A stretch of 62,832 nucleotides of DNA, counting the filler. It is 5 parts of 5 records of this genome, joined end to end, with 100 filler letters (N's around TTAATTAATTAA, not from the genome) between each part and the next. Parts side by side here need not be neighbours in the genome. Positions count along the whole stretch, not along the records: positions 28,512 to 43,263 come from DRR378314_2044; 4 more parts are not named here. One strand, 5' to 3'. Position 1 is the stretch's first letter; each line of letters starts with the position of its first letter. The notes below the pieces were generated by a model. It was not told the DNA's origin, ran no database searches, and saw only the letters and a list, made by a program, of their open reading frames with translations. Both the position numbers and the translations under genes were made by a program. Shown here one piece after another: positions 17,786 to 43,363 of this stretch.

Positions 17786-17872
17786 ACCGTTGGGGTGCCT
17801 CGTCGAGGCTGAGAGATGCGCAAGCGTTAACCCATCGAACCTGATCCGGGCAATTCCGGCGGAGGGAACGGT
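17786..17872 (+). ncRNA. TPP riboswitch
   Basis: GGGGTGC...GCTGAGA...AACCC...GAACCTGATCCGGGCAATTCCGGCGGAGGGA consensus, P1 ACCGTT/AACGGT, directly upstream of thiD. Confidence 0.95.
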
Positions 17873-17930
17873 CTTCTGATATGCAGACAGTTTCTATGCC
17901 CGGTGCCCTTTCGTCGTAAGGAGCATCGCT

Positions 17931-18722: not shown

Positions 18723-18822
18723 NNNNNNNNNNNNNNNNNNNNNNNNNNNNNNNNNNNNNNNNNNNNTTAATTAATTAANNNNNNNNNNNNNNNNNNNNNN
18801 NNNNNNNNNNNNNNNNNNNNNN
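18723..18822. other. Artificial contig spacer
   Basis: N44-TTAATTAATTAA-N44 (stops in six frames); base composition changes across it. Confidence 0.99.
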
Positions 18823-22856: not shown

Positions 22857-22878
22857 AATTCTCTCCTCGTTAATGGGG

Positions 22879-24168
22879 CTATTGTGCGTGTGGGATGGGT
22901 GAACTGCAAGCCGCATGCGTTGAAAATCGGCTAATGCAATATGGTTTAATGTCTATTTTTGTAGGGTGTCTTAAACACAGTGAAGTAATTAACTCCCCAG
23001 TGACCGCACCTTGTGTTAACCCCAAATGTTGATGGCCAAATGCAAAGAAAATATTAGGATGAAAAGGGGCTTCACCAATAACCGGCAATGAGTCAGGTAA
23101 AGAAGGGCGACAGCCCATCCATGTACTGTGAGCATGCAATGATGAGGCTGATTTTTTAAGCATCGCTTTAGCGTGCGGCAATAATGCCAGTGCACGTTTG
23201 TTGTTCATTTTGCGCTGTGTGCCTGCAAATTCGACCGTCCCCGCTATTCGCAAACCTTGGCTCATGGGGGTCATTATAAAGTTACGCTCAGCAGAGGCGA
23301 CAGGGCGAGAAAGGCCATAGTTACTTGCTAGCATGCAATGGTACCCGCGTTCAGTATCCAGCGGGACTTTATAACCAAGGGGCTTAATAAGCGATTTACT
23401 CCATGCGCCAGCGGCAATAACCACTTTGTCAGCGGTAAATTGTTGTTGCTCACCTTTGAGTGTATACCCAAGTTCAGCTTGCTCAATCGCGGTCACTTTT
23501 TGTTGACAAAACTGCCCCCCAAGGGCAATAAATTGCTCTGCTAATGTTACGCAAAATAAGTGCGGATCAACGCTGTGTGCCACGTCATTAAATAATAAAG
23601 CGTGCTTAATTGTGGGTGCTAAGTTAGGTTCAAGTTGCTGAACTTGTTTTGAATTGAGCAGTTCAACACTTATATCGTGCGTTTGAAAACTCTCTAATAA
23701 GCTAGTTATCTGTTCAATCGGGGTTTTTTCAAAGGTCAGTAAACTGCCTTTTTTAGTGATTAGATAGTCTAAATTATAGTTACTTAGCAATTGGTCATAG
23801 GCTGTAATCGCATGTTGATTTAGCGCTTTTAATGCCAACGAGTTGGCTGTATAGGTTTTGTTATTCATATTTTTTAAAAATAACCAAAACCATGGTAGTG
23901 CCTTAATGGTATAACGCCAATCAATACGCAGTGGACCCAGTGGGTTTAACAACATAGAAGGGAGCTTTTTCAGTACCGATGCATGCGCTAAAGGAAATAC
24001 TTGTTCTGTCGCAAAATGCCCTGCATTTCCCTTTGAGCACCCTTGAGCTAAACCGTTTTCATCGTACAGTGTGACGGCAAAGCCCGCACGTTGTAAGTTT
24101 AGCGCGCAACAAATACCAATCACACCCGCCCCAATGACCCCAATATGTTGTGTACTATGATCTGCCAA
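22879..24168 (-). CDS. FAD-dependent D-amino acid dehydrogenase (probable D-hydroxyproline dehydrogenase)
   Basis: GAGVIG, GCSKGNAG, WMGCRPSLPDSLPVIG and AFGHQHLGLT; TTG start with GAGGT RBS; substrate inferred from context. Confidence 0.85.
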   Translation of the reverse strand: MADHSTQHIGVIGAGVIGICCALNLQRAGFAVTLYDENGLAQGCSKGNAGHFATEQVFPLAHASVLKKLPSMLLNPLGPLRIDWRYTIKALPWFWLFLKNMNNKTYTANSLALKALNQHAITAYDQLLSNYNLDYLITKKGSLLTFEKTPIEQITSLLESFQTHDISVELLNSKQVQQLEPNLAPTIKHALLFNDVAHSVDPHLFCVTLAEQFIALGGQFCQQKVTAIEQAELGYTLKGEQQQFTADKVVIAAGAWSKSLIKPLGYKVPLDTERGYHCMLASNYGLSRPVASAERNFIMTPMSQGLRIAGTVEFAGTQRKMNNKRALALLPHAKAMLKKSASSLHAHSTWMGCRPSLPDSLPVIGEAPFHPNIFFAFGHQHLGLTQGAVTGELITSLCLRHPTKIDIKPYCISRFSTHAACSSPIPHAQ

Positions 24169-24382
24169 AATAATTACCTCTTTATGCAATTCGCTACTTT
24201 GGCCGATAAATCATTGCCTATCTCAATATTGCATTTAGTTTTTTAAATTACGAAATATGATTTTTTAACGTTGTTAGTTTAATTTTTTGTTATTTATTTT
24301 CAGTTGCTTAACCTTGTTTTTACTGCGCCAAAGACGCTCTTATAGATTAATGAATAAATGAATATCAAAATGGGATATTGAT

Positions 24383-24396
24383 TATTGTATACAATA
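24383..24396. promoter_or_regulatory. GntR-family (HypR-type) operator palindrome
   Basis: Perfect palindrome TATTGTATACAATA in the divergent promoter region of the hydroxyproline cluster. Confidence 0.75.
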
Positions 24397-24437
24397 TACT
24401 TACTATATCAAGCCTAAACATCAATCAGGTAATTAAA

Positions 24438-24662
24438 ATGACAGTAAATTGGCAAGGGGTCTTTTTAGCAGCACCGACTCAGTTCAATGCATCAGACGCC
24501 ATTAAATTTGCAACAACAGCAAAGATGATCGATGAGCTAAATAATAAAGGCGTTCACAGTATCATTGAACTGGATGCAGCAAACGAGAACACGACTGCCG
24601 TCTCGCTTTACACGCAAGAAATGACAAACCGTATTGCTTTAACAAAATTTAAGTTGGACTAA
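24438..24662 (+). pseudogene. Internally deleted DHDPS-family deaminase remnant (74 aa)
   Basis: MTVNWQGVFLAAPTQFN...MIDELNNKGVHSII matches the DapA-fold N-terminus; about a quarter of normal length; at the position expected for the pyrroline-hydroxy-carboxylate deaminase. Confidence 0.75.
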
Positions 24663-24665
24663 GTT

Positions 24666-25667
24666 ATGCTCAAAGGGACCTTTTTTTGTATTGACGGCCA
24701 TACCTGTGGCAACCCTGTACGGCTAATAACCAGTGGTCACCCGCAATTAAGTGGGGAAAGCATGAGTGAAAAGCGCCAAGACTTTTTGCAAAATCATGAC
24801 TGGATACGCCAAGCGCTTATGTTTGAGCCTCGTGGCCACGATATGATGTCGGGCGGATTCTTATATCCACCTACCACAGAGGATGGCGATGCGGCTATTT
24901 TATTTGTTGAAACATCAGGATGCTTACCCATGTGTGGTCACGGCACGATGGGCATTGTCACGTTTGCGTTAGAGCATGGCTTGTTGCATGCAAACGTGCC
25001 AGGAACATTAAAACTCGATACACCGGCAGGGCGCGTTGAAGTCAATTATGAAATGACTGACGGTAAAGTTCAGTGGGTTAAAATTTATAATGTGCCCGCG
25101 TACCTAGCACATCAATCAATTGAAATTGAAGTGCCTGAGTTAGGCGCGCTTAAAGTAGATATTGCCTATGGTGGCAACTTCTACATTATTGTTGAGCCGC
25201 AGGGGAATTATAAAGGCATTGAACACTTAACCGCAGGGCAAATTTTAAAGTACAGCCCACAGGTACGGGATGCCATAAATATAAAAACGAAATGTGTTCA
25301 TCCGCTTGACTCAACTGTTCAAGGTGCAAGCCACGTTTTATGGACAGGCACACCTAAAAATGCCAATTCAGACGCCGCCAATGCTGTTTTTTATGGTGAT
25401 AAAGCCATTGATCGTTCGCCCTGTGGCACAGGCACAAGTGCGCGTATGGCGCAGCTATTTGCCAAGGGGCAATTGGCTCAAGGGCAAAATTTTATCCACG
25501 AAAGTTATATCGGCAGCCAGTTTATTGGTTGCATTGAACAGGTAACAGAAATCGCAGGTATCACAGCCATCCTGCCAAGTATTCAAGGTTGGTCTAGAGT
25601 GACGGGCAAAAGCACGATCACCGTTGATGACGATGACCCATATGCATTTGGGTTTCAAGTAATTTAA
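24666..25667 (+). CDS. 4-hydroxyproline 2-epimerase (proline racemase family)
   Basis: HTCGNPVR, EPRGHDMMSG, catalytic MCGHG and DRSPCGTGTSA. Confidence 0.93.
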   Translation: MLKGTFFCIDGHTCGNPVRLITSGHPQLSGESMSEKRQDFLQNHDWIRQALMFEPRGHDMMSGGFLYPPTTEDGDAAILFVETSGCLPMCGHGTMGIVTFALEHGLLHANVPGTLKLDTPAGRVEVNYEMTDGKVQWVKIYNVPAYLAHQSIEIEVPELGALKVDIAYGGNFYIIVEPQGNYKGIEHLTAGQILKYSPQVRDAINIKTKCVHPLDSTVQGASHVLWTGTPKNANSDAANAVFYGDKAIDRSPCGTGTSARMAQLFAKGQLAQGQNFIHESYIGSQFIGCIEQVTEIAGITAILPSIQGWSRVTGKSTITVDDDDPYAFGFQVI

Positions 25668-25680
25668 TCAGGAGCAAAAC

Positions 25681-27177
25681 ATGACATTAACAGGACAAAG
25701 TTTAGTAGCAGGACAATGGATTGGTGATTCAGCGAATGGTGAATTTAACGCATTTTCCCCAGCGCGCAATGAACCCCTCTCCACACGCTTTTTTAATCTG
25801 AGTGCCGCTGAATTAGACGGGGCGATAGCGGCCGCGCAATCGGCTTTTTATGAGTATCGTAAAACCAGCTTTGCGCAACGAGCAGATTTTTTAACGTGTA
25901 TTGCAGATCACATATTGGCGCTAGGAGATGATCTACTTGAGCAAACTCATCAAGAAACCAATCTACCCATGATGCGTTTGCAAGGCGAGCGCATGCGAAC
26001 CGTTAATCAACTTAAGGCATTTGCCAGTGCTTTGCGCGAAAACCCTGAATCACCATTGGGTTTAAAAGTTGTGGACGAAGCCGATGCCGCAAGAGCACCG
26101 TTACCAAAACCACATACAGAGCTTAATTATTTACCGCTTGGGCCTGTGGCCGTATTTGGCGCATCTAATTTCCCGTATGCCTTTTCAACACTCGGTGGCG
26201 ACACGGCAGCAGCACTGGCAGCAGGTTGCCCAGTGATTGTAAAAAATCATACAGCGCACCCGGGAACCGGTGAGCTAATGGCACGTGCGGCGCTTGCCGC
26301 TATAAAAGAATGTGCGATGCCATTAGGCGTGTTTGCAATGGTGCAAAGTAAGGCGTATGACATGTCGCATCAGCTCGTTGCTGCGCCGGAAATTAAAGCG
26401 GTTGGGTTCACTGGCTCATTTAACGTTGCTAGTAAACTGCAAGCGACCATTGCAAAGCGTGAAGAACCCATCCCATTTTATGGTGAGCTTGGCAGTATTA
26501 ACCCCCAAGTTATTCTACCTAATAAAGCAATTGAACAGAGTAAAGAAATTGCACAGTCACTTTGCCAGTCAATGCTGATGGGCAACGGGCAGTTTTGTAC
26601 CAGCCCAGGGTTGTGGTTAGTGCCAACGGGATGTGATGAGCTTGAAGCACACATTACAGCGTGCATTGATGATGCCCCGTCAGATACGTTACTCACCCCG
26701 GGGATTGTTAACACGTTTAAACACCAAATAGCAGCGCGTAGTCAGCTTGATAAGGTCAGTGTGTTAGGTGCAGGCAAACTTGCACAGGCGTTTCATGCCA
26801 ATGCACATGTATTCGCGTGCAACGGCGATGACTACTTAGCAACTCCAGCTTTACAAGAAGAAGTGTTTGGCCCTGCGGCGTTAGTTGTGCGCTACGACAG
26901 TGAACAGCAGCTCATGACATTAGTAAATCAATTGCAAGGGCAGCTAACCGCCAGTGTGCATGGTACCGACGCTGACTTAAATAAAGCCGATAGCCTTATC
27001 GAAACGCTGCAATATAAAGTGGGTCGTTTGATAAAAAATCAGATGCCAACAGGCGTTGAAGTCTGCGGCTCAATGAACCACGGTGGGCCATTCCCAAGCT
27101 CAACAGATGTACGTAGTACTTCTGTAGGTACAAATGCAATGTTACGTTTTATGCGACCAATTTGTTACCAGGCATAA
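25681..27177 (+). CDS. Alpha-ketoglutaric semialdehyde dehydrogenase (ALDH family)
   Basis: GPVAVFGASNFP, VGFTGS, GELGSINP, GQFCTSPG, EEVFGP and HGGPFPSS; pathway context. Confidence 0.9.
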   Translation: MTLTGQSLVAGQWIGDSANGEFNAFSPARNEPLSTRFFNLSAAELDGAIAAAQSAFYEYRKTSFAQRADFLTCIADHILALGDDLLEQTHQETNLPMMRLQGERMRTVNQLKAFASALRENPESPLGLKVVDEADAARAPLPKPHTELNYLPLGPVAVFGASNFPYAFSTLGGDTAAALAAGCPVIVKNHTAHPGTGELMARAALAAIKECAMPLGVFAMVQSKAYDMSHQLVAAPEIKAVGFTGSFNVASKLQATIAKREEPIPFYGELGSINPQVILPNKAIEQSKEIAQSLCQSMLMGNGQFCTSPGLWLVPTGCDELEAHITACIDDAPSDTLLTPGIVNTFKHQIAARSQLDKVSVLGAGKLAQAFHANAHVFACNGDDYLATPALQEEVFGPAALVVRYDSEQQLMTLVNQLQGQLTASVHGTDADLNKADSLIETLQYKVGRLIKNQMPTGVEVCGSMNHGGPFPSSTDVRSTSVGTNAMLRFMRPICYQA

Positions 27178-27184
27178 AATAATT

Positions 27185-27217
27185 AATGCGGGAGTCACTA
27201 TTGCATATTCCCGCATT
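27185..27217 (+). terminator. Hairpin after the aldehyde dehydrogenase
   Basis: AATGCGGGA...TCCCGCATT followed by CCTTT. Confidence 0.55.
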
Positions 27218-27309
27218 CCTTTATATACGCTCGCTAAGGACGTAATCTAACTTGGCATCTCATGTTACTTGAGTATAATGTATGCTAAATGCAATATTTA
27301 AGGAACACC

Positions 27310-27978
27310 ATGGCTATCGAGCACAAAACCCGCACCCAACTTGTTGCAGAAGCAATCCGTGAAAAAATATTAACAGGCGAGATAAAAGCCGGTGATCCGC
27401 TTCGTCAAGCTGCATTGGCTGCTGAGCTTAATGTAAGCCGTATTCCTGTTCGCGAGGCGCTGCTTCAGCTTGAAGCTGAAGGGCTTGTTAACTTTGAGGC
27501 TCATAAAGGTGCCACAGCAACAGAGCTTTCTGCATCACAAATTGATGAAATTTTTGATTTAAGAGCGTTACTTGAAGCCGAGCTACTAAGCCACTCAATA
27601 GAGGGGTTAACCAATCAAGATTTAATCGATGCAGAGCTTATTTTAACTGAACTTGAAAGCGCTATGGACGCAGGCGATACACACCTTGCAACGGGCGATT
27701 TAAATAGCCGTTTTCATGGCAAATTGTATTCGCGCGCACAACGCCCACAAACTCGTGAGCTGGTTGATATGTATAGTAAAAATTCAGAGCGCTATGTTCG
27801 TATGCATATATTGTTAGCCGGTGGCCTAACAACAGCGCCAGAAGAACACCGTACTTTACTAGAGTTTTGCCGCGCAAAAGACACTAAAAAAGCCTGTGAT
27901 TTTTTGAAAAAGCATATATTGGGTGCCAAAAACGACATTAAAAAGCTATTACTTAAAATAGAAGACGAAAAAAGGTAG
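27310..27978 (+). CDS. GntR/FCD family regulator (probable HypR)
   Basis: IREKILTGEIKAGDPLRQAALAAELNVSRIPVREALLQLEAEGLV winged HTH and FCD domain; AGGA RBS. Confidence 0.9.
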   Translation: MAIEHKTRTQLVAEAIREKILTGEIKAGDPLRQAALAAELNVSRIPVREALLQLEAEGLVNFEAHKGATATELSASQIDEIFDLRALLEAELLSHSIEGLTNQDLIDAELILTELESAMDAGDTHLATGDLNSRFHGKLYSRAQRPQTRELVDMYSKNSERYVRMHILLAGGLTTAPEEHRTLLEFCRAKDTKKACDFLKKHILGAKNDIKKLLLKIEDEKR

Positions 27979-28071
27979 CTTTTCGTAAACTATTGCTAGC
28001 ACATTCATATAATGTGCTTTAACGCGTTAAATTTATTTGACAAAAATATACAGCTGTTCTTTTTACCTGTT

Positions 28072-28411
28072 TTATAACCTAGAGAATGGACTAATCACGC
28101 CATTTGCACCTTGTTGTAAAACATGCGTATAAATCTGAGTTGTTCGCACATCACTATGGCCTAGTTGCGCTTGAACCGTTCTAATATCAGCACCACTTTG
28201 TAGTAAATGTGTTGCAAAAGAATGGCGTAAGGTATGCGGAGTAACGTGTTTATTAATTTGTGCATCACAAGCTGCTTTTTTAACCGCGCGCTGTAATTGT
28301 TTTTCATCTATATGATGTCTTCTCAATTGCTTACTTTGGGGAGCAATGCTGAGTTTATAAGATGGGAATAAATATTGCCACCCCAGCTGCTTGTTATGAT
28401 TTGGGTATTTT
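28072..28411 (-). mobile_element. intI: Integron integrase, 3' part (5' cut by contig end)
   Basis: Frame open to the contig edge: [33 protein letters not shown] (integron-specific insertion), then [12 protein letters not shown]...[23 protein letters not shown]. Confidence 0.92.
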
Positions 28412-28511
28412 NNNNNNNNNNNNNNNNNNNNNNNNNNNNNNNNNNNNNNNNNNNNTTAATTAATTAANNNNNNNNNNNNNNNNNNNNNNNNNNNNNNNNN
28501 NNNNNNNNNNN
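28412..28511. other. Artificial contig spacer
   Basis: N44-TTAATTAATTAA-N44. Confidence 0.99.
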
Positions 28512-28512
28512 T

Positions 28513-28540
28513 TCGCTCGCTCGCTCGTTCGTTCGTTCGT
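28513..28540. repeat. Compound tetranucleotide microsatellite (TCGC)3(TCGT)4
   Basis: Read directly at the contig start. Confidence 0.9.
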
Positions 28541-29426
28541 TGCATCCCTTCGAACAGCATATGCATAGAGTTTTGTCAAGGTATCTGCACTGCCATTGTG
28601 CACCGATGTCCGGGCTGCGTCTCGGATATTCAACGGATAGTAGGATTTGCAGCACCCGTGCCATGTGATGGCGATCTGGTGCATGCGCTCTGGTGTAGAT
28701 TTGGATAGGACCAAGCCAGCGAGATGCCAAATATGACGCCATGCATATTTGGTTTTTGGGTATATCAGAAAACGTCTGTGCTTGGTCCGAGCGCATCCTT
28801 TTGTGTCCTGTGAATGTTACTCGTGTGATGAGGAACATCGCACTGGAGTAATTGCACGTGCGAGACGCGCAAGCAGCTTCCATGCCGCATTCTTGAACAG
28901 ATTCGGCTTCTATAGTGGTGCAAGAATTCGAGCCATTCCATGCACGCATGTATTTTGTAAGATTTTGTACTGTCCCCTTGCACAGATGTTTCTCCTCTTG
29001 AACAGGTAGTCAAGAAGGGTATAACAGCGCCGAGGGTCAGTGCGCGCGACGAGAATGTGCGATTTCATGATAGGGCGGCAGTTTCCTTGGAATGGCGAGC
29101 GCCTTGTTGCGGTTTGATGTGCAGTCGTGTACACATGTGCCCCGTGCAGGATTTGTGCGTGCTTGAAGCGCAACTTGGTTGATTTTTCTCCCAGTATGAT
29201 GTTTTGTACTTCCAGAGTTGCGATCTCCGTGCTCGCGCTTAGCCCTGTTCACGCGGGTGCCTGCGTCGCGTCTGGCATCTGCCGCTTGGGCAGGGCGCGC
29301 ATCAGGGTTTGGTTTGTCTTTGGGATGTGGACGCTTTTCGTACGAGTACAATCCACAATGTGGAACTTATGTCAGTGTGTGGGAAACGTGTTTTGCATTC
29401 GTTCGGGGGTGGGGGCGCCGGAACAG

Positions 29427-32400
29427 GACGTTGCGAGCATCTGTCGACTGCTTGCAGTGCAGATGAGCCACGGATGGTTCATTCCGCTGCTGATGCGCGT
29501 TCTGCAGCGCAAGCTTGGATCGGACTCGGCTATATGTCTCCCTGAATGGGACAACCGCCGACCTACTTCTCTTCCAAAAGGTAAAAATGAAGTGCGAGCC
29601 CATGGGAGTCAAGCGGTTGATCCTGACGACGTTGCTGTGGATATGATGCACCTGCATGCACTCGCGCCAGAGATGCAGCCCGGGCAGGGATCGAATGCGT
29701 TCTGCGTCTCTGGCGAGCACACGGCTTCAGGAAAGCCTATGCTGGCATCGGACCCGCACCTCCGCGGATCGACACCCATGATCTGGTACCAGGTAAGATA
29801 CTCGAGTTCGTTTACGAAGTCTCGCCTTGTACGGCGTGGGTGATGTAGTTCTTTTTAGTTCACATTTCCGTTCTCGCGGAAGGTCAGTTTCGCAGTGCAG
29901 CAGAGTCCGCGTTTTGCAAACGCGATGAATGTGCTGCGCACCGACCGTTACGCTGTAGCGCAAGCTTACGCATCTGTAAGTCAAGTGGGGAGGAAGGGTA
30001 GATGTTTAAGTCGGCCAGGAACTCAACGCTTTTGGCACGCCAAAATCCATGTGCACTTTCGTACGTGCATTTTGTCAGAGAGGTACATTAACGCAGGGAT
30101 ACTGGGTGCGGCTCGCTGCTGTCCAAGTGTCGCATTGATCTCCCGATCGCCGTGCTCAGCAGATCAGCCGGGTACTCTTGTCAATGCCGATAGAAGAACG
30201 AACCTCGTTTGTTGGTCACGCAGAGAACGATATCAGCTCTCCGTAGCGGTCAGTGACGGATCGCTCTGGGACGTCTGCGGGGCTGCCCTCTGTCCGCAAC
30301 CGCACCAGAGCCTAGCCCGTGCTGGAGACTGTCTACAGCCCCGGAGTGTGGCGCGTTGGACTATGCTGACAAAGCTGGGATCGCATACTCGTCGGAACTT
30401 CTACCGTTGCGCGTACGTTTTTTTGTAGGTCCATGTGCGCTGCGAGGAAGGTGGCCTTGACGTCGCCGGCGTCTCTGTCCCCGGTGTTCCCTTGATCACA
30501 ATGGGCCACAGCGACCGAATTGCGTGGGGAATCACCCTGACGTACAACGACGTGGCGGATATTTTTGAAGAGCACTGTCATCCGCATGATGCCGACCTGT
30601 TCGAGGTTTCAGAAGGAGAGTTTGAACGTTGTCGAGTGTGGGAGGACGAAATAGCGATCAAGGGGGCGCGCCGCGAACCTTTGCGGGTGCGATGGACGCG
30701 TCACGGCCCTCTGCTGTCGGACCTGATGGATGTGCATGCGTGGACGGCACACGACGACAGCGGGGTGGGCCCACGCGCTTGCGAGCACTTTGCGCTACGT
30801 GCATGCTTCCTGGACCCATCACCAGTGTGGGCAAGCTTCCGCCGTGTGAACAAGGTGCGTGAAGTGGCAGGGTCTGTGGAGGAGTCTGCTGTGGATGCGC
30901 TCGGTTGTACCCTCGATCTCATCGCCGCTGCGTTTGCCCGCAGTCGATATTTTGGTGAGGCTGCATCCGACAACGAGACATTTGTTTCGTCTTCCCATGA
31001 CGCCACCATACACTCAATCTTGTAGCGATATAGAGTAAGTAGGAAGTATGTGTATGCGTTCTTGGTTTTATCGGAGGGTGGGAGTAGCTCGCTTGTCGTT
31101 GGGGCGCCGTCGAGCGATGTAGTCGGTGGATTGCCTTCATCAGAGCGCTGGGTGATGACGAGGAGGCTTCGCTGCAGTTACAGAAAGCGAGGATGAGGTC
31201 TTTTTACGCATGCGTACTGTAACATCTGCTTGCTTCGCCGGGTGTGATATTTCCCTACTATTCCGTCTCGTTGGAACGAAAGGTGCTGGCCTTCCTTGTC
31301 CTTGTGTCTATGGGTGCGTCAGTGTGTGCGAGTGGAGCCTTGCCTTCGTTGCTAGCCCACACGGGCTCGTCTCCAAATTTTTCTCCTACAATATCTGTAC
31401 CAAAAAGGTGTCGTAGCGTTTCTATATCCGAGATGCCTGGTGCTCTACTACATTGATCCTGCGCATTGTTTGAGGCCGCGGCTAATTGGCTTGGTTGTTT
31501 CCACATCCGGTCCTTTCTCTCCGCCGCGCAATGCAAGCACGCTCCTAGCGCAGCCCCTCACCCGCTCTGCTCCGTCTGCCTGATCCGCGTTCGTTGCTTT
31601 CAGGCGCACACTGCCACCGAATTCGCCACGGCTGCCCGCGGCCTAAAGTCTCCGTCGCTGAATTTTGCTTTTGCCACAGTCGATGGTGATATCGGCTATG
31701 TTGTATCGGGAAATGTACCGCAACGAAGCGACGCGCGCGATGATGGGAGCACGATTCTTCCCGGGTGCGTTGCCCGGCGTTCCATGCTTGCTCGGTTTGC
31801 GCGACTATACATTGTATCTCATTGCATGCGTAAGGTGGTTGTTACGCCAGTATTTCGGGGAGGGGTGCGGCCTGCATGGACGCATGCAACGTATATGCGT
31901 GCTCTCGGAATGGGAGTGGGTTTCGCCTCTCGCTCTGGGTGAGAGATACGCCGATGGAGTGCGTCACACAAAACGGGCTACGCACGGTGTACAATATTGT
32001 GCTGTGCAAGTGTGTGCTTGTTTCTTCTCTATGCATACGTTGGCCTGAACGTGTGCTGCTCGTTTTTGCGAGAGAAAGCGCTTACGGTTAGGCCAACGGC
32101 AGCGCTTCGAGGCAAGCATGCGCTGGCTGCCAAATGCGCTTTCCAACGCGACTCTCGTTTTCAACCTGGGCCATACGGCATCGTTCTTTTTTGTTGCCCC
32201 ATTTTTGTCGTACTACAGCTATGACGGCAAACATGAATGGAAATCAGAGTTTGTTCCTGAAGAGGATCTCCCGTTCGCTCTCAATCCAGAGCAAGGTACG
32301 GGAGGGTCATCCAGGATGGCCTTTCGAGTGAAATTGTACGCAGCGAAAGGAAGAGTTTTATGCATCAACGGGCAGCGCTTTCTTGTTCTACTGTGTTGAT

Positions 32401-35072
32401 GCGAGCACTTTCTTACTAGCATTTGCCTCTGCATGTATGGTTGTACGTTGGTAAATGGACAAACGCAAGGCTTCCTTGTAACTGCAAACCATAGGATTAC
32501 TGGACCCGAGTATCCGCATTTTCTCGGCAACTACTTTTTGAATGGAATCCGCGGTGCAAGGATTACAAAGCTTCTTCACGAGCGCATCGAGCAAACAGGT
32601 CACAAAATCACGACATCCGACATGCTTGCGATCATGTGCGATGTCAAAAATGATTTTGCGCACGAGTTTGTCAGCCGGTGCGTTGTACAGATAAAGGATA
32701 AGCGGCAGAAACAGAACTACCCTGCATCCTCACGCGCGTGTGCGTGCAGCCCGGGGTATTGATATGGCTTACCGTGTGTTCCTCTGTGCGCGTTTGTGCG
32801 TTTTGGGTCTCTGGTTTCTGGATGCTTTGGGAAAGGGTTCTCTCTGTCGTTTCACAGGCAGATGATCCGTGTGTGCAGGAGGCGATCGATATGCTGCGTT
32901 CGTTCGACGGTGACCTGTCGCCCACGTCGACGGCTGCCTCTGTCTACACGGTGCGTTTTGTATCCCCCGCACGGCACACACGCGCAGCGGTGGCAGTGCC
33001 CATTTGTTTGTTCCTGTATGCATCTATGGCTCAGTTTGTACGCACGCTCTGTGTTTTGCTGCCTTGTTTGAGATATGTCGATGCGTGATGTTCCGTCGGT
33101 CCTCGTGCTTATGTGGTACATTTCCGTCTTGCTGTTGCCGCGACCGCAGGTTCTTCGCTACTACTTGTTCTTCGAGACATATGGCGTCGTGCTTGGGCGG
33201 AAGCTTGCGCTCCTTTTGTGGGGTTTCGGCCCACACGAAGTATTTGAAGCTGATACAGAGTTTTTCACGCACGATACGGCGCTTCTTGTTCGAATCATGG
33301 ATGAGAAACCCGCGTGGGTTACGTCTGCGTGCGGGCCGTTTCCGGAAGTTGTGTTGCGCGCTCTTTCCAAGGTGAGGGCGGAACGCGCCACTTTGCTGCC
33401 TTGTTGCGCACCTGTTGCGCACAGTAGGGATGATGAGGAATGTAATATCTGCCTATCGCTACGGTGCACGGTGTTTTGGTGGTTGGTTTGACTTCTGGGG
33501 GGGGGAACTTGTTTGCCGTCGTGCGTGCCAAGGGAAGCGTGCGCTGCGCTTGCTCGACGGCCAACCCCCCGCCTGGTGTATGGTTGGCAGCGCGAGTCCA
33601 AGCGAAAGGAATGCTTGTGTAACATATGCGTGCACGATTTTGCCATATTTCTTGCTCATTAACTCTTTTTCCAGACGGTAGACTACTTGCAGCGTGAGTG
33701 CGGTAGCTTAGGTCAGGCGCAATACGGGAAAATTCATCGCCTGCGGCTGAAGCACGGGCTGGGAGATCTGGTGCCCGTCTTTTCCCGCGGTGGACAACCG
33801 GTCGGTGGCGACAACGACACCCCTCAGGTATGGCAAGAACGGCCGCTATCGTCTGCGGCGTTTTATGCAATATCTACTCCTTCAGGTCTGGAACACCTAT
33901 AAAATTTCATGGTAATGCTGCATGCAATGTGAAAACTTTCCCTGTACCTAGATCGGCGGTTTGATTGGTGTGTGGGAGCGATGCGGAAGTGGAGCCGACG
34001 CACTCACGCTCTTGCGTATGGGTCGCGCTGGCGTTACTGTCGCGACGAGGGTACCGCGTGTCAAAAGGCACACGAAGCGACCACGGGGGCTATCTAGGGG
34101 GGCACAGGCGCTAACATAGGCAGAAAGACGTTATGGCTAGGATTCGTGTAGTGTATTGATAGCTACGTATGGACGTTGTAACGTAGCAGCGGTCATCGCA
34201 CTACATCGTGCGTCCCAGATTCTTGCAATAGAGCACGTGCCTGTACATGCACGGTTTCCCCCTGTTACATTTGGCGGTCCGCTGCCTCGTCTGCCTTTAT
34301 TTTTTGCAGGCCATGTGCTGGGCCCCAGATGGATCTTTTGACGTAAGTTTTGCCATGCCAAGCTTCAGGCATGTGTCAGACCTGGCGAATATATCTGCGG
34401 CGAGATGTATTGTGCCTGGTGGACAGGTATGGATCCACTGCTGCGAGGCAGGTGCACGCTCTGCTCGATCAGCGCTTCGGCGGGTTCCGGCGTACTGAGC
34501 TCCGTTTGTTTCTTTTATTGTTTCTGTGACTCTGATTGGCCCTACGAAATGTATGCATATTATATATATATCGATCTAAATCGTTTGTGATACGCGAGCA
34601 TCTCTATGGATTCATGCTCCAAGTTGCAAGCTTGCGCGTGCCATGGGCACCTGCTGTCGCAAGAGGTAAGCGCTGCGCCGCCGTGGTGTTCGCCTCGCAA
34701 CCCAGGAACCTTTCCCAACGTTACTTGGTACGCTTTTTGCTTCCTTTCTCCGCAGTGCGGGCATCTGGGAAATCGCCACTACGACGATCGAACAGAGCGG
34801 TATGTGCGCGGCGAGCTCGACCCGATGGTATTTGCGGAGGATGATATAGCGGGTACGTGCTCGGACATGTCCGGCTGGGCTGCACGCGGGTCGACGCTCG
34901 TTGCGCTTTGAGGCCAAGCGCTTCCCCTTCGTTCGGACGCCTTGCTGCGCCTTTCGTACGGAGCGCAGACGGGGCGCTCATGGGAGAGAGTCTGTTTTCG
35001 GTATCTCTGTTTTTTTTGCCGGGTTTTGCAGCATCTACGGAAAGCGAGTTTGTCCTTATCAGCGACGCCTGA
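29427..35072 (+). CDS. Spliced eukaryotic penicillin acylase / AHL-acylase family (peptidase S45, Ntn-hydrolase) gene; 5' exons unresolved
   Basis: Phase-consistent GT-AG exons: 29427-29792, 30429-30854, 31604-31764, 32219-32295, 32470-32677, 32836-32950, 33150-33371, 33675-33827, 34310-34426, 34756-34852, 35032-35072. Motifs in order: GSNAFCVSGEHTASGKPMLASDPHL, IWYQ|VH, VAGVSVPGVP..MGH..IAWGIT, TRHGP, NFAFATVDGDIGY, NPEQ|GFLVTANH, YGKIH, PSFRHVSDL, PGGQ|CGHLGNRHYDD. Confidence 0.9.
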
Positions 35073-35532
35073 GGACGAGAGCAGCGCGCGGCGTATTTGG
35101 GGGGGGGGTTCTCGTAGGCGGCACCTTGATCTACGGAGAGCGGCGGGGCCTTGCGCCGCGCTCCGGCACAAACGGGAGATAGCGCATTCCGTGCGCGGGC
35201 GTTACGTCGTGCTCCTACGCAAGGGCAGCGTGCTGTCCGCTCTCTCGTTCCGTACGATGCGCGCACAGGATCGCTTGCGACGCGATGATACTATCGTGTG
35301 ACAGCGAGAGTGATGGGACTCCTTGTCGAGGAGTACCTGGGACGCGGAGTTGGTCGCGGCTTGAAAGGTGCCAAAGAGTTGGTTTGTTTGTGTTGCTTGC
35401 TGCCGCTTCTGTGCAGCAGGTTTCTGCAAAGGCGTCGCTCCAGTTGGCGTCAGGCCCAGCATCTGCGCCGGCGATCGTGAGCTGGACTGGTGGCAGAACC
35501 GCTGGGCGCTTTGTGGGACAAAAGGCACGGTT

Positions 35533-36701
35533 TCATCCGTGCACAATCATGTTCAATACAGACATAGGGCGTATAAACCCCGGGTGTGTGTTCTTTCCTG
35601 CCGCCTCGTTAACGAACGCGATTCCCGATGCCGTGCTTGCCGCCGGTGGTGCGCGAGCGCTCTTGCGCAGGGCCGCGCGCCCAACAGTGCGCAAGAAACC
35701 GCCATCAGCCAGGCGCCTGCTAGTCCCGCCGTTTCCTTTCTGCCCCCGTATCAAAAAAGCAAACGCACACAAACTCGATTCCACTGGTAGAATGTCGTGT
35801 AAGCAAGAGCGATCGAATGCGGTGATTTGTAGCCTTTCGGCTGCGGGAGCGCTTGGAGGTGTGCAAGGGAGGCAGTGTGGCGGCTGTCGCCAAGACGGGG
35901 AACCAAGGGGCAGCGGCGTGCAACGCGCGCACAGGCCGTGCGCACCGTGAGTGAGGCAACCTGCGCGCGCCCGATCTGAATAAATGATCCGAATACTAAA
36001 TGGTGCACACGAACGAAACTGTATCGTTTTGTTTATTCCGCGTGGACTTCAGCGTCGACAGCGGCCCAGCGTTGCGTGCGCGGGGGCGTCGCACCCACGC
36101 ACACGCCAGGCGACCGGGGAAACACCGCCTTGCGAAGCACGACGCCGGGTGTGCGCTACGCGAGCAGCTACTCTGTAAACTACGCAAAGCAGCTGCGATT
36201 ACGCCCGTGTGAATGCTGCCGTTCTGCTCCGTTTCTTTTGTTTATCGAAAAGTACTCCGTTGTCGTATGTATATTCATCGAGAGGCTACGATTTCGCAGA
36301 GCGCCTCTGCGGAGCTGCCCACGCGCGTCCGGCAAGCGCACAGCCGGAAGCTCAGAACTGAGCTGCCAGCGCTCTGAAGGCGCTCGTTGCAATTTTCACG
36401 CTCGCTTACTTGCAGCGGAAGCAGCGCTTCATGCGAATCCAGCAGACGAGGAATTTTCCCTTTCCAAACATTGTTCACAGACGATTGCTTCGTTTCAGCA
36501 ACAACGTGATGGTATGAGTCACGATCTGGATGTCGTTTGGGGGTGACGGAGGCGCAGGGCAAACAGGCTGGACAGACCCGTGCTCGTGCGTCAAAGAGTG
36601 TTCTTTTTTTCCTTGCACTGTCTCGCGTCGCGTGCCTCGCCGCAAGAACACGGATAAGGATCGCTGCAGCGGTACAGACAAGTCCTCTCCTGCAAAACTT
36701 T
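35533..36701 (-). CDS. Probable spliced gene of unknown function (partial model, ends uncertain)
   Basis: Phase-compatible candidate exons 36701-36636, 36525-36410 and from 36285 (ESFAGEDLSVPLQRSLSVFLRR|DRDSYHH...EALLPLQ|PLDEYTYDNGVLFDK); no family recognised. Confidence 0.35.
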
Positions 36702-37411
36702 CTATCACCAACCCTACCCCTAACCCTATTATATGCGATCCGTCACCCAGCTACCGACTGTTGCAGCTTTACAGAAGGAAACATGGTGCCACAGTACTTG
36801 GGACTACTATCGCATCCCAAGGACGCCTGCAACTTAGGCAGTTACGCGGCAAGATGCAGAAAAATGAAATCTTTGACCGCACGCTGAGGCAGATGCTGTG
36901 TCCCGGGTGTTTAGTACCGTCAAGCTACACTTTGTTCAGCGTGGAAAGGACCGGACAGACGCTGGCCCCTCTCGCGAAGACGCACGTGGAAACGGCAAGG
37001 AGCTTTCGAAGCCGGGACGCGAAGCACCCTGTATCCTGCGGTGTATTCCCAAGACAATTTCTGTTCGCAGGGATGTAGCGCCGATTTCTTTCGGACGACG
37101 GAGTGGCTGGCCGGCCCTCTGCACTGGAGAGTTGCAAGAGCGCGAAGACTCCACAGCGAGCTGCCGAGGGCCGCAGGGGACCCTTTCTGTCTCCTTCCGC
37201 TAGCTCCGCACTCGCTCCACGAACAGAGAGACAGGTTCGTCCTGCAATGTCGAGCTAATCCTGAAGCAGAGCGTCTCGTTAAAGAAGGGTTATTTTGGGT
37301 CTTGAGTATCTAGATAACTTGGCCATGGGGCCAAGTCAGTTGCACATCGTGCAGCGCGCACAAACGGCGCACGCCAGCGCTCGTCTTCTGCGGATGTTGC
37401 GATGCGAAACG

Positions 37412-40400
37412 TTAGTCGTTGAACGATGAAAATTTTTCTGCGCTGCCCGCAGAACGTAAATCTTTCCGTTCGGCTAGTTCAAGCGTCATTAGGATCGACT
37501 TTCGAGTTCCCTTGGACGATAATGATTCAAGCAGACTGGAGAAATCGATGATGGTAAGGCTGCGGGCTTTCCTGTGGTGGTACATGGCAGAGTCGGCACA
37601 GCACAGTGGCAAGCGGGCAAGCGCATTGGATCAGAAGGGAAACCCAGCGAACCACGCTTCCACACCGCAGCAGGTTCTTTGCTTGCACGTTTCCTTCTGG
37701 CGATGGCGCGCGCACGAATACCCACTCGTCTTTTCTTCTGCCTTGTATGACAATATTTGTGCTTGATTTCACTCTGCTTACCCGAATGATGTGAGTACGA
37801 AGTGCAGAGGCAGCTTGCAGCCAGTTTTGTGACCAAGTGCGTCGTGTAGCAAACCTGGAGGCTTCCCATCGTCGCTGTCTCAGCGAGACCTGAGCACAGC
37901 CTTCGTTCCTTGCGAGTGCACTTTCAGATTTTATGATACAAAAAACAAAGAAAACGAGTAAAGACTACAGCGCCAAGTTTTTCATTTGTGCTCTCTGGTT
38001 TACCACACTTGGCTCTGTTGCGCGGTCCGGGGTAGGCATATGGGGGTTGGGCCTATGGACGCCTCCCTCGCTAGGAGCAGACGCTGGAGCTGCAGTGACA
38101 AAGCAGGCCGGTTGCAGCAGTGCCACATGAAACGCACCACTCGTGGACAAATCGGCGAACAAGCTCGAGATATACATCATTGGTAGTATCAGAAGTTGAA
38201 TTTTTACGCTGGAGTGTTTCTGTGTGACCTTGGCGGATCCAGCCCAGGGCCACTTTGCTTAGGTTGATGGATACGAGCGCCAGCGGGAAGTCCTGCGCGC
38301 GACGCGGTGACGCACAGCACGACACACGATTTGAGCACGTGGGGCTCCCCTTGGACAGAGCAGCGAGTTCTGTTGACCAAACAGAGGCGCGTGATTCAAG
38401 GAAGAGAGCTCACTGAAATAAAGCAATGGCGGAATGGTTTTTTTCTCTAATGTTTCTTCCATGCAGCGGGCGCTGGCGGTGGGCTCATAAGCATTGGGGC
38501 ACGTTTGGCTTTCCGGTGCTAGCGCTTGGTTCCAAGCACCACGAACGTGTCCGCAAAGCCAATGACTTGGCAGCAGCCGTGCGACGTCCCGATCGTCTGG
38601 CGTTGCCAGAGTGGTCAACTCTGATGTTTGCCATTCCTTATTCCCAACGTTTCGCACGTACATGGTCGGGTATAGTTGATAGTGCAAACATAGCTCGTGC
38701 AAGCGCAGTGTGCTTCGTCACTAGCCACAGGAGCTGAGAAAGTCCCAAGAGCCCGAGGTCGCGAAGATCTGTTGCGGGATCGTTGCCTTGGAACCCGACT
38801 TTTTCCCAGTGAGGGCCTCGCGCAGGCGGCCGGTGCTTTTCTTCTGCGTGCCCATGCAGAAAGGCGAAAGAAGAAGGCTTTACATACGTACTTTTCAGGA
38901 GAAATGATTACATATGTTATCAAATAGATCAATGGAAACTGGCTGCGGCAAAGTGTGCGGGTACGCATGCAATTTGTGCGAAAGACCTCGAGCACGCCAC
39001 CCTCGCTACAGTACCGCCCAACGAGTCTGCCCGGTCGCCGGCGCGACGCGGGCACTGCACCCAAGCGATCGCGCGCCCAGAATGCGATCCATAGTTGCAT
39101 ACTGAGTGTACGTACACGCGCGTTAGTAGACATACCTACGAGTCGCATATAGATTGTTGCAAACGCAGCGTCACAGAGCACTCGACTGTCCTCATACGCA
39201 GTGCGCGCAAGCGCGACGACCTGCGCAGCAGCTCGCAGAGAAGTCTTCGTGCTGCTGCGGTCGAATGCGGAGCACCTGCAGCATAGCAGCTTTCCCCAAG
39301 GCGATGGTGCATGGCTCTGTTGTAATTGCGCTGTTGCTGCATCGATTCTGTCCTGTGTAATTATATCACTGACATGGTGCTCAAAGTCTTCCCATAGTAT
39401 TCCAAACGGCCCGAATGCGAGAGACACAGTGGCGGCTGGCGTGTCGGTAGGCGCCAGCATTTCTGCTTCTCTGTTCGCGCCCCACTTGTCGACTGCTCCG
39501 TTCGCGCGATCCACTGCTGCCCATTCAGCTTCCGCAGCGGCTTTTGCAGCCGCTCTATCCGTACAGTGATCAAGCGTTTCGTTTGTGCGCGGATGATCCT
39601 GAGAAGAAGAAAGTCCTGCGGGAAGAGAGTCGCCACTAGGCGGGCCCTTTGGCGACGGCGCGAGCGTTTGGTGTGCGGCCTTTGCACTGACGCTATCGCC
39701 CGGTGGGCTAGCACACGCACTGTCAGCGCTGGACGAGCGTAGTGGGCTTTCTGCGTGTGGCAACCGAGGTACACCGGTAGCTTCCGACTCGCTACGGGCG
39801 CGCCGGAGAAGTCCGCTACTCTCGATCACGTCATTACTGCAGAAAGTCGAAGGACGGTCGGTCTCTAAAGGCGAGGGATCGAAGGGGAGCAGTGTGCTTG
39901 GAGGCTCGGGCGTGGCTTTCCATTCGCCGGCTGCACTCGCGGTGACGGCCTCTGCTTCTCGTGCAGCGGGAACGCTCTGCTGTGGGTGCATGTCCAACCC
40001 AGGCGCCTGCGGTGTATCCCCGCTATCCATCGGAACTGTATCACCATCTCCCAATGCTTTGACCGTCGAGATACGGGTATGTAAGCTTTCGGGACGCTCA
40101 CTTGTTGTAGTCTTTGCGCAGTGAGCGAGCTGGTCGAAAGCCGGCACATATTCCAAAGGTGGGATTGCGTGCTGATCGGAGCCAGATAGCAACTGGGCCT
40201 GGGGCGTGTCCTGATTTCCGTAGGCGCCTTCTTCGTTCTCTGACCCTTTGCTTTCCTCCTCTGCTCGAGCATGTCTTATGCATGCGACAGAAGAACTGTC
40301 CGGTTGTGGATGTACAACTGTCGCGGAATTCGCAGCCCTTGGAGGTTCGGAAGCCTGGATTTTTCCACTGTCCTTTGAGCGGGACGCGGAGCTGGCCGCC

Positions 40401-42898: not shown

Positions 42899-43263
42899 CC
42901 GATTCAATCTTTTAGGGATAAAATAATGCACGAGAAAGAAATATAGTGAACGACGTCGATACAAAAGGAAAGGTTTGTTTGTAAGCGCCTGATTCGCGAC
43001 GCAGGCGGTTAGATTTTCGTTCATCTGTGCTCGCGCGTCGAAAGGCGGCCGCCGCTGTGGGTGCTCCTTCACGGTTTACAAAGTGTGGTTTCATGTTTTA
43101 CTTCCGCCAACCGTGCTCGCATTGCGATTTGATTAGGCTGAAATTAAAGTCGCTTTAGTTTTGGTTTTGGTCATGTATTTACTGCTTGACTATCCCCCAC
43201 ACTTTCACGTTTACATGCAATCGTGTGACCATTGAGAAGTCTGCAGCCGGGAGACGTCAGTTT

Positions 43264-43363
43264 NNNNNNNNNNNNNNNNNNNNNNNNNNNNNNNNNNNNN
43301 NNNNNNNTTAATTAATTAANNNNNNNNNNNNNNNNNNNNNNNNNNNNNNNNNNNNNNNNNNNN
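43264..43363. other. Artificial contig spacer
   Basis: N44-TTAATTAATTAA-N44. Confidence 0.99.

What the first reader, a model, noticed from the sequence alone, without database searches (positions are those of the whole stretch)
29427..35072. Penicillin/AHL-acylase (S45) gene with at least 10 spliceosomal introns
Seen: eleven exons splice in phase into the end of the alpha subunit/spacer and a complete beta subunit. The autoproteolytic G|SN nucleophile Ser and the TAN(H) oxyanion Asn are intact. Established: S45 Ntn-hydrolases (PGA, PvdQ, QuiP) are mainly prokaryotic and include quorum-quenching AHL acylases. Inference: an old bacteria-to-protist transfer, now domesticated, which could let the eukaryote degrade acyl-amide signals or toxins from co-occurring bacteria. 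The gene is invisible in the ORF track.
Basis: partly seen in the sequence, partly recalled or inferred. Interest (0 to 1): 0.72.

Follow-up and report, generated by a model that had tools for sequence, protein, structure and literature searches.

The report
Intron-split penicillin-acylase-family gene in a protist
This is a real, expressed gene of an unidentified microbial eukaryote for a bacterial-type amide-cutting enzyme of the penicillin-acylase family, split by ten introns; similar borrowed genes are already reported in other protists, and what it cuts is unknown.

Summary
Eleven exons (29427-35072, + strand) join into a stop-free 660-codon frame. All ten introns are GT..AG, and one 3035-letter contig of public run X1 bridges all ten with no mismatch. 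Exons match Pfam Penicil_amidase colinearly, profile positions 126-673 of 675. The Gly|Ser-Asn processing site, His beta23 and the Asn beta241 and Arg beta263 equivalents are kept; 51 of 59 near-invariant family columns are conserved. About 160 N-terminal residues lie off the contig, but the transcript contig has 609 more letters 5'.

The window is five stitched contigs. This one also carries a eukaryote-type ELMO exon; three others are bacterial.

No relative exceeds 37% identity over the aligned length. In the trees the gene sits beside sequences from Acrasis, Chromosphaera and Copromyxa, next to a Chloroflexota-type bacterial group; the AU test is marginal, p 0.037.

Bacterial ancestry and domestication are supported, but not as a lone event. 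Penicillin-amidase transfers into protists are already in print. Nothing supports AHL specificity: the nearest solved enzyme is D-succinylase, and the PvdQ model scores far below cut-off. Verdict: new member of a known kind, modest interest.

The parts
28512..29426 (+). 3' part of the intron that precedes exon 1 (at least 915 bases). The upstream exons lie off the contig. The contig starts with a short TCG-rich simple repeat.
   Evidence: The X1 transcript contig has 609 letters before 29425 that lie nowhere on 28512-29425. Its last 30 loose letters have no match in the window at up to 3 mismatches. tblastn with 7 relatives finds no alpha-chain N-terminal match there.
29427..29792 (+). Exon 1 of the part in the window: end of the alpha chain, linker, the Gly88|Ser89 self-cleavage site (Ser codon 29691-29693) and His beta23 (29757-29759).
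   Evidence: PF01804 E 1e-14, profile 126-203. Joint 29792>30429 in X1. Ser, Asn, Asp and His columns are invariant in 356 relatives.
30429..30854 (+). Exon 2: beta-chain core including the W-G-x-T stretch that aligns with the PGA beta67-69 region.
   Evidence: PF01804 E 6.9e-26, profile 205-314. PDB match to D-succinylase E 5.5e-8. X1 joints on both sides.
31604..31764 (+). Exon 3
   Evidence: PF01804 E 8.7e-10, profile 327-378. X1 joints.
32219..32295 (+). Exon 4
   Evidence: No Pfam hit alone. X1 joints 31764>32219 and 32295>32470. Aligns with relatives.
32470..32677 (+). Exon 5: T-A-N-H motif (Asn 32487-32489, equivalent of PGA Asn beta241) and Arg 32550-32552 (equivalent of Arg beta263).
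   Evidence: PF01804 E 4.6e-9, profile 405-467. Asn and Arg columns are 99-100% conserved in 356 relatives. X1 joints.
32836..32950 (+). Exon 6. The acceptor is 22 bases upstream of the AG I first guessed.
   Evidence: X1 joint 32677>32836. The frame is open only with this acceptor.
33150..33371 (+). Exon 7
   Evidence: X1 joints. Covered by the end-to-end BLASTP alignment.
33675..33827 (+). Exon 8
   Evidence: PF01804 E 4.9e-4, profile 558-604, below the curated cut-off on its own. X1 joints.
34310..34426 (+). Exon 9
   Evidence: X1 joints. tblastn match to relatives E 9e-4.
34756..34852 (+). Exon 10. It carries G-Q-C-G where 97% of relatives have G-x-S-G.
   Evidence: PF01804 E 1.2e-3, profile 644-673, below the cut-off on its own. 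X1 joints. Column table.
35032..35072 (+). Exon 11, coding part, ending in TGA.
   Evidence: X1 joint 34852>35032. Stop codon.
35073..35513 (+). 3' untranslated region, at least 441 bases.
   Evidence: The X1 contig runs unbroken from 35031 to 35513.
38641..38907 (-). Context only: an exon of a neighbouring ELMO/CED-12 domain gene on the same contig. It marks the contig as eukaryotic.
   Evidence: PF04727 E 1.6e-15, 58 bits against a cut-off of 23.3.

Best explanation
This is an expressed nuclear gene of an unidentified microbial eukaryote. It encodes a proenzyme of the S45 N-terminal-nucleophile hydrolase family (penicillin-acylase family).

Shown:
- The gene has at least 11 exons and 10 GT-AG introns.
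- A spliced transcript exists.
- The product is colinear with the end of the alpha chain and the whole beta chain.
- The residues used for self-cleavage and catalysis in solved relatives are kept.

Inferred from family knowledge: the precursor cuts itself between Gly88 and Ser89 of the modelled part. The freed Ser amino terminus then attacks the carbonyl of an acyl-amide substrate. The backbone NH in the W-G-I-T-L stretch and the Asn of T-A-N-H stabilise the oxyanion, and the conserved Arg and His hold the site together. The acyl-enzyme is hydrolysed, releasing a carboxylic acid and an amine.

Inferred from trees: the gene descends from a bacterial gene, most likely of a Chloroflexota-type lineage, taken up long ago. 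It belongs to a thinly spread branch that also holds genes of Heterolobosea, Ichthyosporea and Amoebozoa, rather than being a fresh private import.

The substrate is not known. My best guess is a medium- or long-chain N-acyl amide met during feeding on bacteria, and I hold that part weakly.
For: Gene structure and expression:
- Spliced frame of 660 codons without a stop.
- 10 of 10 introns are GT..AG, and all are bridged by one X1 contig with 0 mismatches.

Family membership:
- PF01804 hits are colinear on 6 of 10 exons, 4 above the cut-off.
- A profile including the exons matches D-succinylase over its full length, E 2.7e-105.
- 51 of 59 columns that are at least 90% conserved in 356 relatives are kept. 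These include Ser89, Asn90, Asp109, His111, Asn350 and Arg371.
- Roles of beta-S1, beta-Q23, beta-A69, beta-N241 and beta-R263 come from passages of PMC11241749.

Eukaryotic setting:
- ELMO exon on the same contig.
- CDS GC 0.562, introns 0.537, contig 0.545.

Phylogeny:
- PMSF tree: the gene lies in an 11-row group (SH-aLRT 93) with Chromosphaera and the Acrasis-holding 8-row group (99). This group is separate from a 17-row Chloroflexota-type group (97), all within a 29-row clade (100).
- With the five longest rows left out, it remains sister to the Acrasis group (97).
- Forcing it into the bacterial group costs 21.4 log-likelihood units, AU p 0.037.
Against: - The first ~160 residues, with any signal peptide, are unseen, so the whole protein is not verified.
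- By plain BLASTP the best-scoring relatives are the Chloroflexota-type proteins (355-394 bits, 32-35%), not the eukaryote ones (265-316 bits).
- The gene's branch is long (1.15-1.54 changes per column) and the tool warns of long-branch effects.
- The AU p is only just under 0.05, and the group was named after seeing the tree.
- Copromyxa is unresolved at the base of the 29-row clade.
- 8 of 59 conserved columns differ, including Trp>Phe at beta4 and Ser>Cys in the C-terminal G-x-S-G.
- X1 is only guessed to be RNA by the tool. That it is RNA rests on the intron-free contig itself.
- No fold and no activity was tested.
Confidence: 0.8

Rival explanations
1. A separate, private transfer from a Chloroflexota-type bacterium into this organism's lineage. 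On this reading the grouping with other eukaryote sequences is a long-branch artefact.
For: The best BLASTP scores and identities are to Chloroflexota-type proteins. The nearest rows by path length are the same proteins. The gene's branch is long and the tool flags long-branch joins. AU rejection is marginal, p 0.037.
Against: A mixture-model tree places it with the eukaryote-holding group at SH-aLRT 93-97, also after removal of the five longest rows. Holding it with the bacterial group costs 21.4 lnL units.
Confidence: 0.2
2. The enzyme is an AHL acylase used for quorum quenching against co-occurring bacteria.
For: S45 enzymes include AHL acylases (family knowledge). Bacterial contigs lie in the same assembly. 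The catalytic apparatus is intact.
Against: PvdQ is a far weaker match than D-succinylase, PGA and glutaryl acylases. The PvdQ equivalog model is far below cut-off. No secretion signal can be checked here, and 11 of 12 sequences of this group that were scanned show no N-terminal hydrophobic segment (crude scan). The listing (8 of 12 papers shown) contained no characterised protist S45 AHL acylase.
Confidence: 0.15
3. The enzyme is a beta-lactam (penicillin or cephalosporin) acylase used to detoxify or make use of antibiotics.
For: Family name. PGA and glutaryl-7-ACA acylase are the second-best solved matches, E 2e-55 and 4e-54. Papers on amoebae and a ctenophore suggest this role without assays.
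Against: Overall identity to any relative is at most 37%. Specificity in S45 is set by variable regions (passage). No assay exists.
Confidence: 0.1
4. It is a decaying or non-functional relic (pseudogene) that happens to be transcribed.
For: 8 of 59 near-invariant columns are changed. The branch is long.
Against: There is no stop or frameshift in 660 codons across 11 exons. All catalytic columns are kept. Correct splicing occurs at 10 of 10 introns.
Confidence: 0.05
5. It is bacterial contamination or an assembly artefact, not a eukaryote gene.
For: Three of the five stitched contigs in the window are bacterial.
Against: Ten GT..AG introns are removed in a transcript contig. The continuous 14.7-kb contig also carries an ELMO exon. 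There is no bacterial-style uninterrupted ORF.
Confidence: 0.01

Closest known systems
D-succinylase of Cupriavidus sp. P4-10-C (PDB 7eby, 7ea4)
   Same: It is the nearest solved structure. Exon 2 alone gives E 5.5e-8. A profile that includes the exons gives E 2.7e-105 over chain residues 23-823. It has the same G-S-N processing site and D-P-H motif.
   Different: Only a distant relative: the passage gives 27% similarity to other S45 enzymes. It is a bacterial, intron-free gene. Its substrate (N-succinyl-D-amino acids, passages) cannot be carried over.
Chloroflexota-type 'penicillin acylase family' proteins of about 790 residues (e.g. P0350, P0349, P0353)
   Same: Best BLASTP relatives: 33-35% identity end to end, residues 1-656 against 162-785. 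Sister group in the trees.
   Different: They are bacterial by the names available, have no introns, and have short branches. None is characterised, as far as the names show.
Eukaryote homologues: Acrasis kona AcyII (KAL0476603.1), Copromyxa protea EP01127_P022754, Chromosphaera perkinsii EP01135_P002757, and an unnamed EukProt entry
   Same: Same branch of the family in the trees.
   Different: Only 28-33% identical to this gene. Chromosphaera carries an added PRK (PF00485) domain. Their intron positions could not be compared.
Penicillin amidase genes reported as transfers in Rhynchopus euleeides, Acanthamoeba, Naegleria, Willaertia magna and Mnemiopsis leidyi ML02771a
   Same: The same kind of event: an S45 gene of bacterial type in a eukaryote genome, some shown to be expressed. 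Passages seen: bioRxiv 10.64898/2026.01.29.702485; PMC6005172; PMC7285305; PMC6892926.
   Different: Their sequences were not on hand, so kinship with this gene is untested. None is reported with ten introns in the passages I saw.
PvdQ and other AHL acylases
   Same: Same S45 family, with Ser beta1 and His beta23.
   Different: Weak match: profile E 2.4e-26 over the first 373 beta residues only. The NF051460 score is far below its cut-off.

Membership tests
Pfam PF01804 Penicil_amidase / MEROPS S45 | Sequence match to the family profile above the curated cut-off | tested here: met
   Exons 1, 2, 3 and 5 score 55, 91.9, 38.7 and 36.3 bits against a cut-off of 21.3.
Pfam PF01804 Penicil_amidase / MEROPS S45 | Complete alpha chain, linker and beta chain in one precursor | tested here: inconclusive
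   Profile positions 126-673 of 675 are covered. Positions 1-125 are not in the window. A transcript contig has 609 more letters 5' that I could not read.
Pfam PF01804 Penicil_amidase / MEROPS S45 | Gly-Ser self-cleavage site with Ser as the first residue of the beta chain | tested here: met
   G88-S89-N90. The Ser and Asn columns are 100% conserved in 356 relatives and align with the G-S-N of D-succinylase.
Pfam PF01804 Penicil_amidase / MEROPS S45 | Oxyanion and site-holding residues (beta23 His/Gln, beta241 Asn, beta263 Arg in PGA numbering) | tested here: met
   His111, Asn350 and Arg371 lie in columns 99-100% conserved. The mapping to PGA numbers is my own count on the chain printed. Roles come from passages of PMC11241749.
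Pfam PF01804 Penicil_amidase / MEROPS S45 | Ntn-hydrolase fold | not tested
   The spliced product could not be handed to the folding tool, so no model was made.
Pfam PF01804 Penicil_amidase / MEROPS S45 | Autoproteolysis to a heterodimer and amidase activity | not testable with these tools
   Needs expression and assay.
AHL acylase of the PvdQ type (NCBIfam NF051460, equivalog) | Score at or above the curated cut-off of 950 bits | tested here: not met
   Exon 2 scores 19.6 bits and exon 1 has no hit. Relatives P0350, P0108, P0081 and P0336 score 42-74 bits.
AHL acylase (functional class) | Hydrolysis of N-acyl-homoserine lactones | not testable with these tools
   No assay. No characterised close relative was found.
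Penicillin G acylase (EC 3.5.1.11) | Close kinship to characterised PGAs | tested here: not met
   PGA chains match the family profile at E 2e-55 to 2e-29, far weaker than D-succinylase at 2.7e-105. Exon 2 against PGA gives E 5e-7 to 3e-5.
Eukaryotic nuclear gene with spliceosomal introns | GT..AG introns removed in a transcript; eukaryote-type neighbours | tested here: met
   10 of 10 joints are GT..AG in the X1 contig. ELMO/CED-12 exon on the same contig.

The most novel reading that the evidence does not exclude
The gene belongs to an old, thinly spread, eukaryote-only branch of S45 acylases that lack a signal peptide. This branch came once from a Chloroflexota-like donor and now spans Discoba, Amoebozoa, Holozoa and this organism's lineage. 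On this reading it serves an internal eukaryotic role, such as turnover of N-acyl amide lipids or N-acyl amino acids, rather than defence against bacteria.
Probability: 0.2. Interest if true: 0.55.

Novelty: new member of a known kind. Interest (0 to 1): 0.3.

Why it matters
The gene is a clean, transcript-verified example of a bacterial-type enzyme gene fully naturalised in a eukaryote: ten introns, host-like composition and a eukaryote neighbour gene. It adds a deep-branching member to a little-studied group of eukaryote S45 acylases for which no substrate is known. If that group proves to be a single old clade, it would be a useful case for how transferred genes spread and persist among protists. 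An enzyme assay could show whether protists use such acylases on bacterial signals, antibiotics or their own lipids. As a single gene it is not surprising, because similar transfers are already in print.

Tried and rejected
- Acceptor guess: my first acceptor for exon 6 (32858) broke the frame. It was replaced by 32836 from the transcript contig.
- 5' exons: tblastn with 7 relatives over the contig found no alpha-chain N-terminal match. The 30 loose letters of the X1 contig have no match in the window.
- No whole genome is held for the window.
- No RNA holder is listed for the stretch. X1 is only guessed to be RNA.
- Parts of the stretch without cover in X1, and the depth figures, are not used as evidence.
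- Exon 5 alone found nothing in the PDB sequences at E <= 1.
- The metagenome scan with the clade alignment kept 80 loci at 23-34% identity to P0153. None was a close relative or the source contig of the unnamed clade members, and they were not used further.
- Earlier-findings look-ups by place and by sequence were empty.
- Pfam on 123 stop-to-stop frames of the two eukaryote-like contigs gave only the ELMO exon and one sub-threshold chance-level hit. The organism therefore stays unidentified, and I did not try to trace the source record.
- A crude hydrophobicity scan of 12 clade members and 3 bacterial relatives found no membrane module like the one noted earlier for Naegleria. Only Copromyxa has an N-terminal hydrophobic stretch.
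- LG and FastTree trees gave the same neighbourhood but carried long-branch warnings, so I rely.
- I did not run an AU test of the monophyly of all eukaryote rows.
- The coordinates held stop codons and were corrected.

Full report
**What the window is.** The 62,832 bases are five separate pieces joined by linkers of 44 N, TTAATTAATTAA and 44 N, at 18723-18822, 28412-28511, 43264-43363 and 56012-56111.
- Pieces 1, 2 and 5 are gene-dense and carry bacterial families. These include nitrite and nitrate reductase domains, GntR/FCD, aldehyde dehydrogenase, proline racemase, an ABC permease, a truncated phage-type integrase, and a TPP riboswitch in front of a phosphomethylpyrimidine kinase.
- Pieces 3 (28512-43263, GC 0.545) and 4 (43364-56011) have few Pfam-recognisable frames.
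- The finding lies on piece 3. No whole genome is held for the window.

**The observation.** Reading the sequence and the stop-to-stop frames gave eleven candidate exons. My first model broke the frame between exons 5 and 6.

Laying the contigs of the single public run that holds the stretch settled the structure (X1; share of words 0.36, close to the exon share of the 5646 bases). One 3035-letter contig, identical to the window where it lies on it, skips ten stretches that all begin GT and end AG. The exon 6 acceptor is at 32836.

The final exons are 29427-29792, 30429-30854, 31604-31764, 32219-32295, 32470-32677, 32836-32950, 33150-33371, 33675-33827, 34310-34426, 34756-34852 and 35032-35072. 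Together they are 1983 bases: 660 codons and a TGA, with no internal stop. Intron lengths are 636, 749, 454, 174, 158, 199, 303, 482, 329 and 179. Four of the ten donors read GTGCGT.

The same contig runs on to 35513, a 3' untranslated region of at least 441 bases. It also has 609 letters before 29425 that lie nowhere on 28512-29425. Its last 30 loose letters are absent from the whole window. By eye they continue the exon 1 frame without a stop. The upstream exons are therefore off the contig. The tool only guesses that X1 is RNA; the intron-free contig is itself the evidence for a processed transcript.

**Family.** Of ten exon translations, six hit Pfam Penicil_amidase at E <= 0.01, four of them above the curated cut-off. 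The hits are colinear at profile positions 126-203, 205-314, 327-378, 405-467, 558-604 and 644-673 of 675. Exons 4, 6, 7 and 9 gave nothing alone.

The spliced product aligns end to end (residues 1-656) with residues about 162-785 of relatives about 790 residues long, at 33-35% identity. About 160 N-terminal residues are therefore missing. That fits within the 609 unseen transcript letters.

**Catalytic residues.** In an alignment with 356 relatives, 59 columns within the modelled span are at least 90% conserved, and the gene keeps 51 of them.
- Kept: Ser89 and Asn90 (the G|S-N site), Asp109, His111, Thr158, Asn350 (T-A-N-H) and Arg371.
- Changed: Trp>Phe (twice), Asn>Ser, Glu>Asp, Asp>Thr, Pro>Ile, Trp>Ala and Ser>Cys.

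By my count on the PGA chain printed, His111, Asn350 and Arg371 correspond to beta23, beta241 and beta263. The roles of beta-S1, Q23, A69, N241 and R263 are stated in passages of PMC11241749. No fold was computed, because the spliced product could not be passed to the folding tool.

**Eukaryotic setting.** Ten spliceosomal-type introns removed in a transcript exclude a bacterial contaminant. The same contig has an ELMO/CED-12 exon on the minus strand at 38641-38907 (E 1.6e-15). CDS GC (0.562, GC3 0.593), intron GC (0.537) and the neighbouring long exon (0.576) are alike. The organism could not be named from what is in the window.

**Relatives.**
- An exhaustive HMMER search with exon 2 against 1.84 billion representatives gave 3009 hits at E <= 0.001 and 302 at <= 1e-10. 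None reached 1e-30. The best was 4.9e-17, and identity was at most 49% over about 95 residues.
- Word-based searches gave the same picture.
- A search with an alignment of the nearest rows brought up named eukaryote sequences: Acrasis kona AcyII, an unnamed EukProt entry, and Chromosphaera perkinsii (fused to a PRK domain). Copromyxa protea had been found before. Many Chloroflexota MAG proteins and one Heimdallarchaeota MAG fragment also appeared.

**Trees.**
- A mixture-model tree of 43 rows puts the gene with P0108 (SH-aLRT 96).
- That pair lies inside an 11-row group (93) with Chromosphaera and an 8-row group (99) that holds Acrasis and the EukProt entry.
- A 17-row Chloroflexota-type group (97) is the neighbour, and Copromyxa is unresolved at the base of the joint 29-row clade (100).
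- Ktedonobacteria, Dehalococcoidia, Caldilineae, Anaerolineae and Bacillaceae lie outside.
- Leaving out the five longest rows keeps the gene as sister of the Acrasis group (97).
- Forcing it into the bacterial group costs 21.4 log-likelihood units, AU p 0.037. This is marginal, and the group was named after the tree was seen.

Against this reading, plain BLASTP ranks the Chloroflexota-type proteins first. The gene's branch is long.

**Function.**
- The nearest solved enzyme is D-succinylase: exon 2 gives E 5.5e-8, and the profile gives 2.7e-105 over the full length.
- Next come PGA (2e-55), glutaryl-7-ACA acylase (4e-54) and cephalosporin acylase (2.5e-39).
- PvdQ reaches 2.4e-26 over part of the beta chain only.
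- The NCBIfam PvdQ equivalog model scores 19.6 bits on exon 2 and 42-74 bits on four relatives, against a cut-off of 950.

The chemistry (self-cleavage, then Ser-beta1 amide hydrolysis) can be inferred with fair confidence. The substrate cannot. A crude hydrophobicity scan shows no N-terminal signal-like segment in 11 of 12 clade members, nor in three bacterial relatives. This mildly argues against a secreted quorum-quenching enzyme, but the N-terminus of this gene itself is unseen.

**What is in print.**
- A passage of the bioRxiv preprint 10.64898/2026.01.29.702485 reports penicillin amidase as a transferred gene in Rhynchopus euleeides. It says the gene is also found in several protists, citing Clarke 2013 and Liechti 2019, which I did not read.
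- PMC6005172 lists Mnemiopsis ML02771a, a penicillin acylase of bacterial origin expressed in development.
- PMC7285305 and PMC6892926 report a transcribed penicillin amidase in Willaertia magna.
- The listing of a search for 'quorum quenching', 'acylase', 'protist' (8 of 12 papers shown) shows no characterised protist S45 AHL acylase. A negative from one listing is weak.
- Two earlier notes of this scan describe a membrane-anchored S45 gene in Naegleria gruberi, and one calls its branch old and eukaryote-only. These are unchecked leads. My trees did not include that gene.

**Verdict.** It is probably wrong in treating the gene as a lone transfer, and it is unsupported on AHL specificity. This is a new, deep-branching member of a known kind.

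Noticed in passing
window 18723-18822, 28412-28511, 43264-43363, 56012-56111: The window is five unrelated contigs joined by N44-TTAATTAATTAA-N44 linkers. Pieces 1, 2 and 5 are bacterial with different GC (0.60, 0.43, 0.61). Pieces 3 and 4 are eukaryote-like or unassigned. Features must not be read across the linkers.
   Followed up: partly
window 36038-36610 (+): An X1 contig of 573 letters with depth 307, about ten times that of the acylase transcript contig, lies 1 kb downstream. No frame there has a Pfam hit and Rfam finds nothing. It is an unexplained abundant RNA, or part of another gene's untranslated region.
   Followed up: no
window 33858-34146 (-): A low-depth (3) X1 contig lies wholly inside intron 8 on the opposite strand. 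It could be unspliced precursor, antisense RNA or carried-over DNA.
   Followed up: no
window 38641-40567 (-): Neighbouring gene: a 556-residue Pfam-less, Ser/Pro/Ala-rich first exon followed by an ELMO/CED-12 exon (PF04727, E 1.6e-15). The rest of the domain must lie in further exons downstream on that strand.
   Followed up: partly
window 43364-48757 (-): An uninterrupted 1798-residue frame (GC3 0.75) with no Pfam hit. Language-model features point to repeated pre-ATP-grasp / PGM1-like ATP-grasp modules (score 0.93, a lead only). It runs off the contig end.
   Followed up: partly
window 17781-17884 (+) and 17931-18722 (+): A TPP riboswitch (74 bits) directly upstream of a phosphomethylpyrimidine kinase gene, on bacterial piece 1.
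   Followed up: partly
window 21639-28410: Bacterial piece 2 carries a likely (hydroxy)proline catabolic set: M24 peptidase, FAD oxidoreductase, proline-racemase family, aldehyde dehydrogenase and a GntR/FCD regulator. It ends in a phage-type integrase cut by the contig end (28075-28410, minus strand).
   Followed up: partly
protein P0371 (Chromosphaera perkinsii, EukProt): A 1014-residue fusion of a PRK/uridine-kinase-type domain (PF00485) with the penicillin-amidase domain. This architecture was not seen in the other rows.
   Followed up: no
proteins P0373, P0378 (unnamed, Logan): Members of the Acrasis-holding group with poly-Q and poly-N runs near the N-terminus.
   Followed up: no
window 28512-28541: Piece 3 starts with a short TCG-rich simple repeat. 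This may be why the assembly broke inside the intron upstream of exon 1.
   Followed up: no
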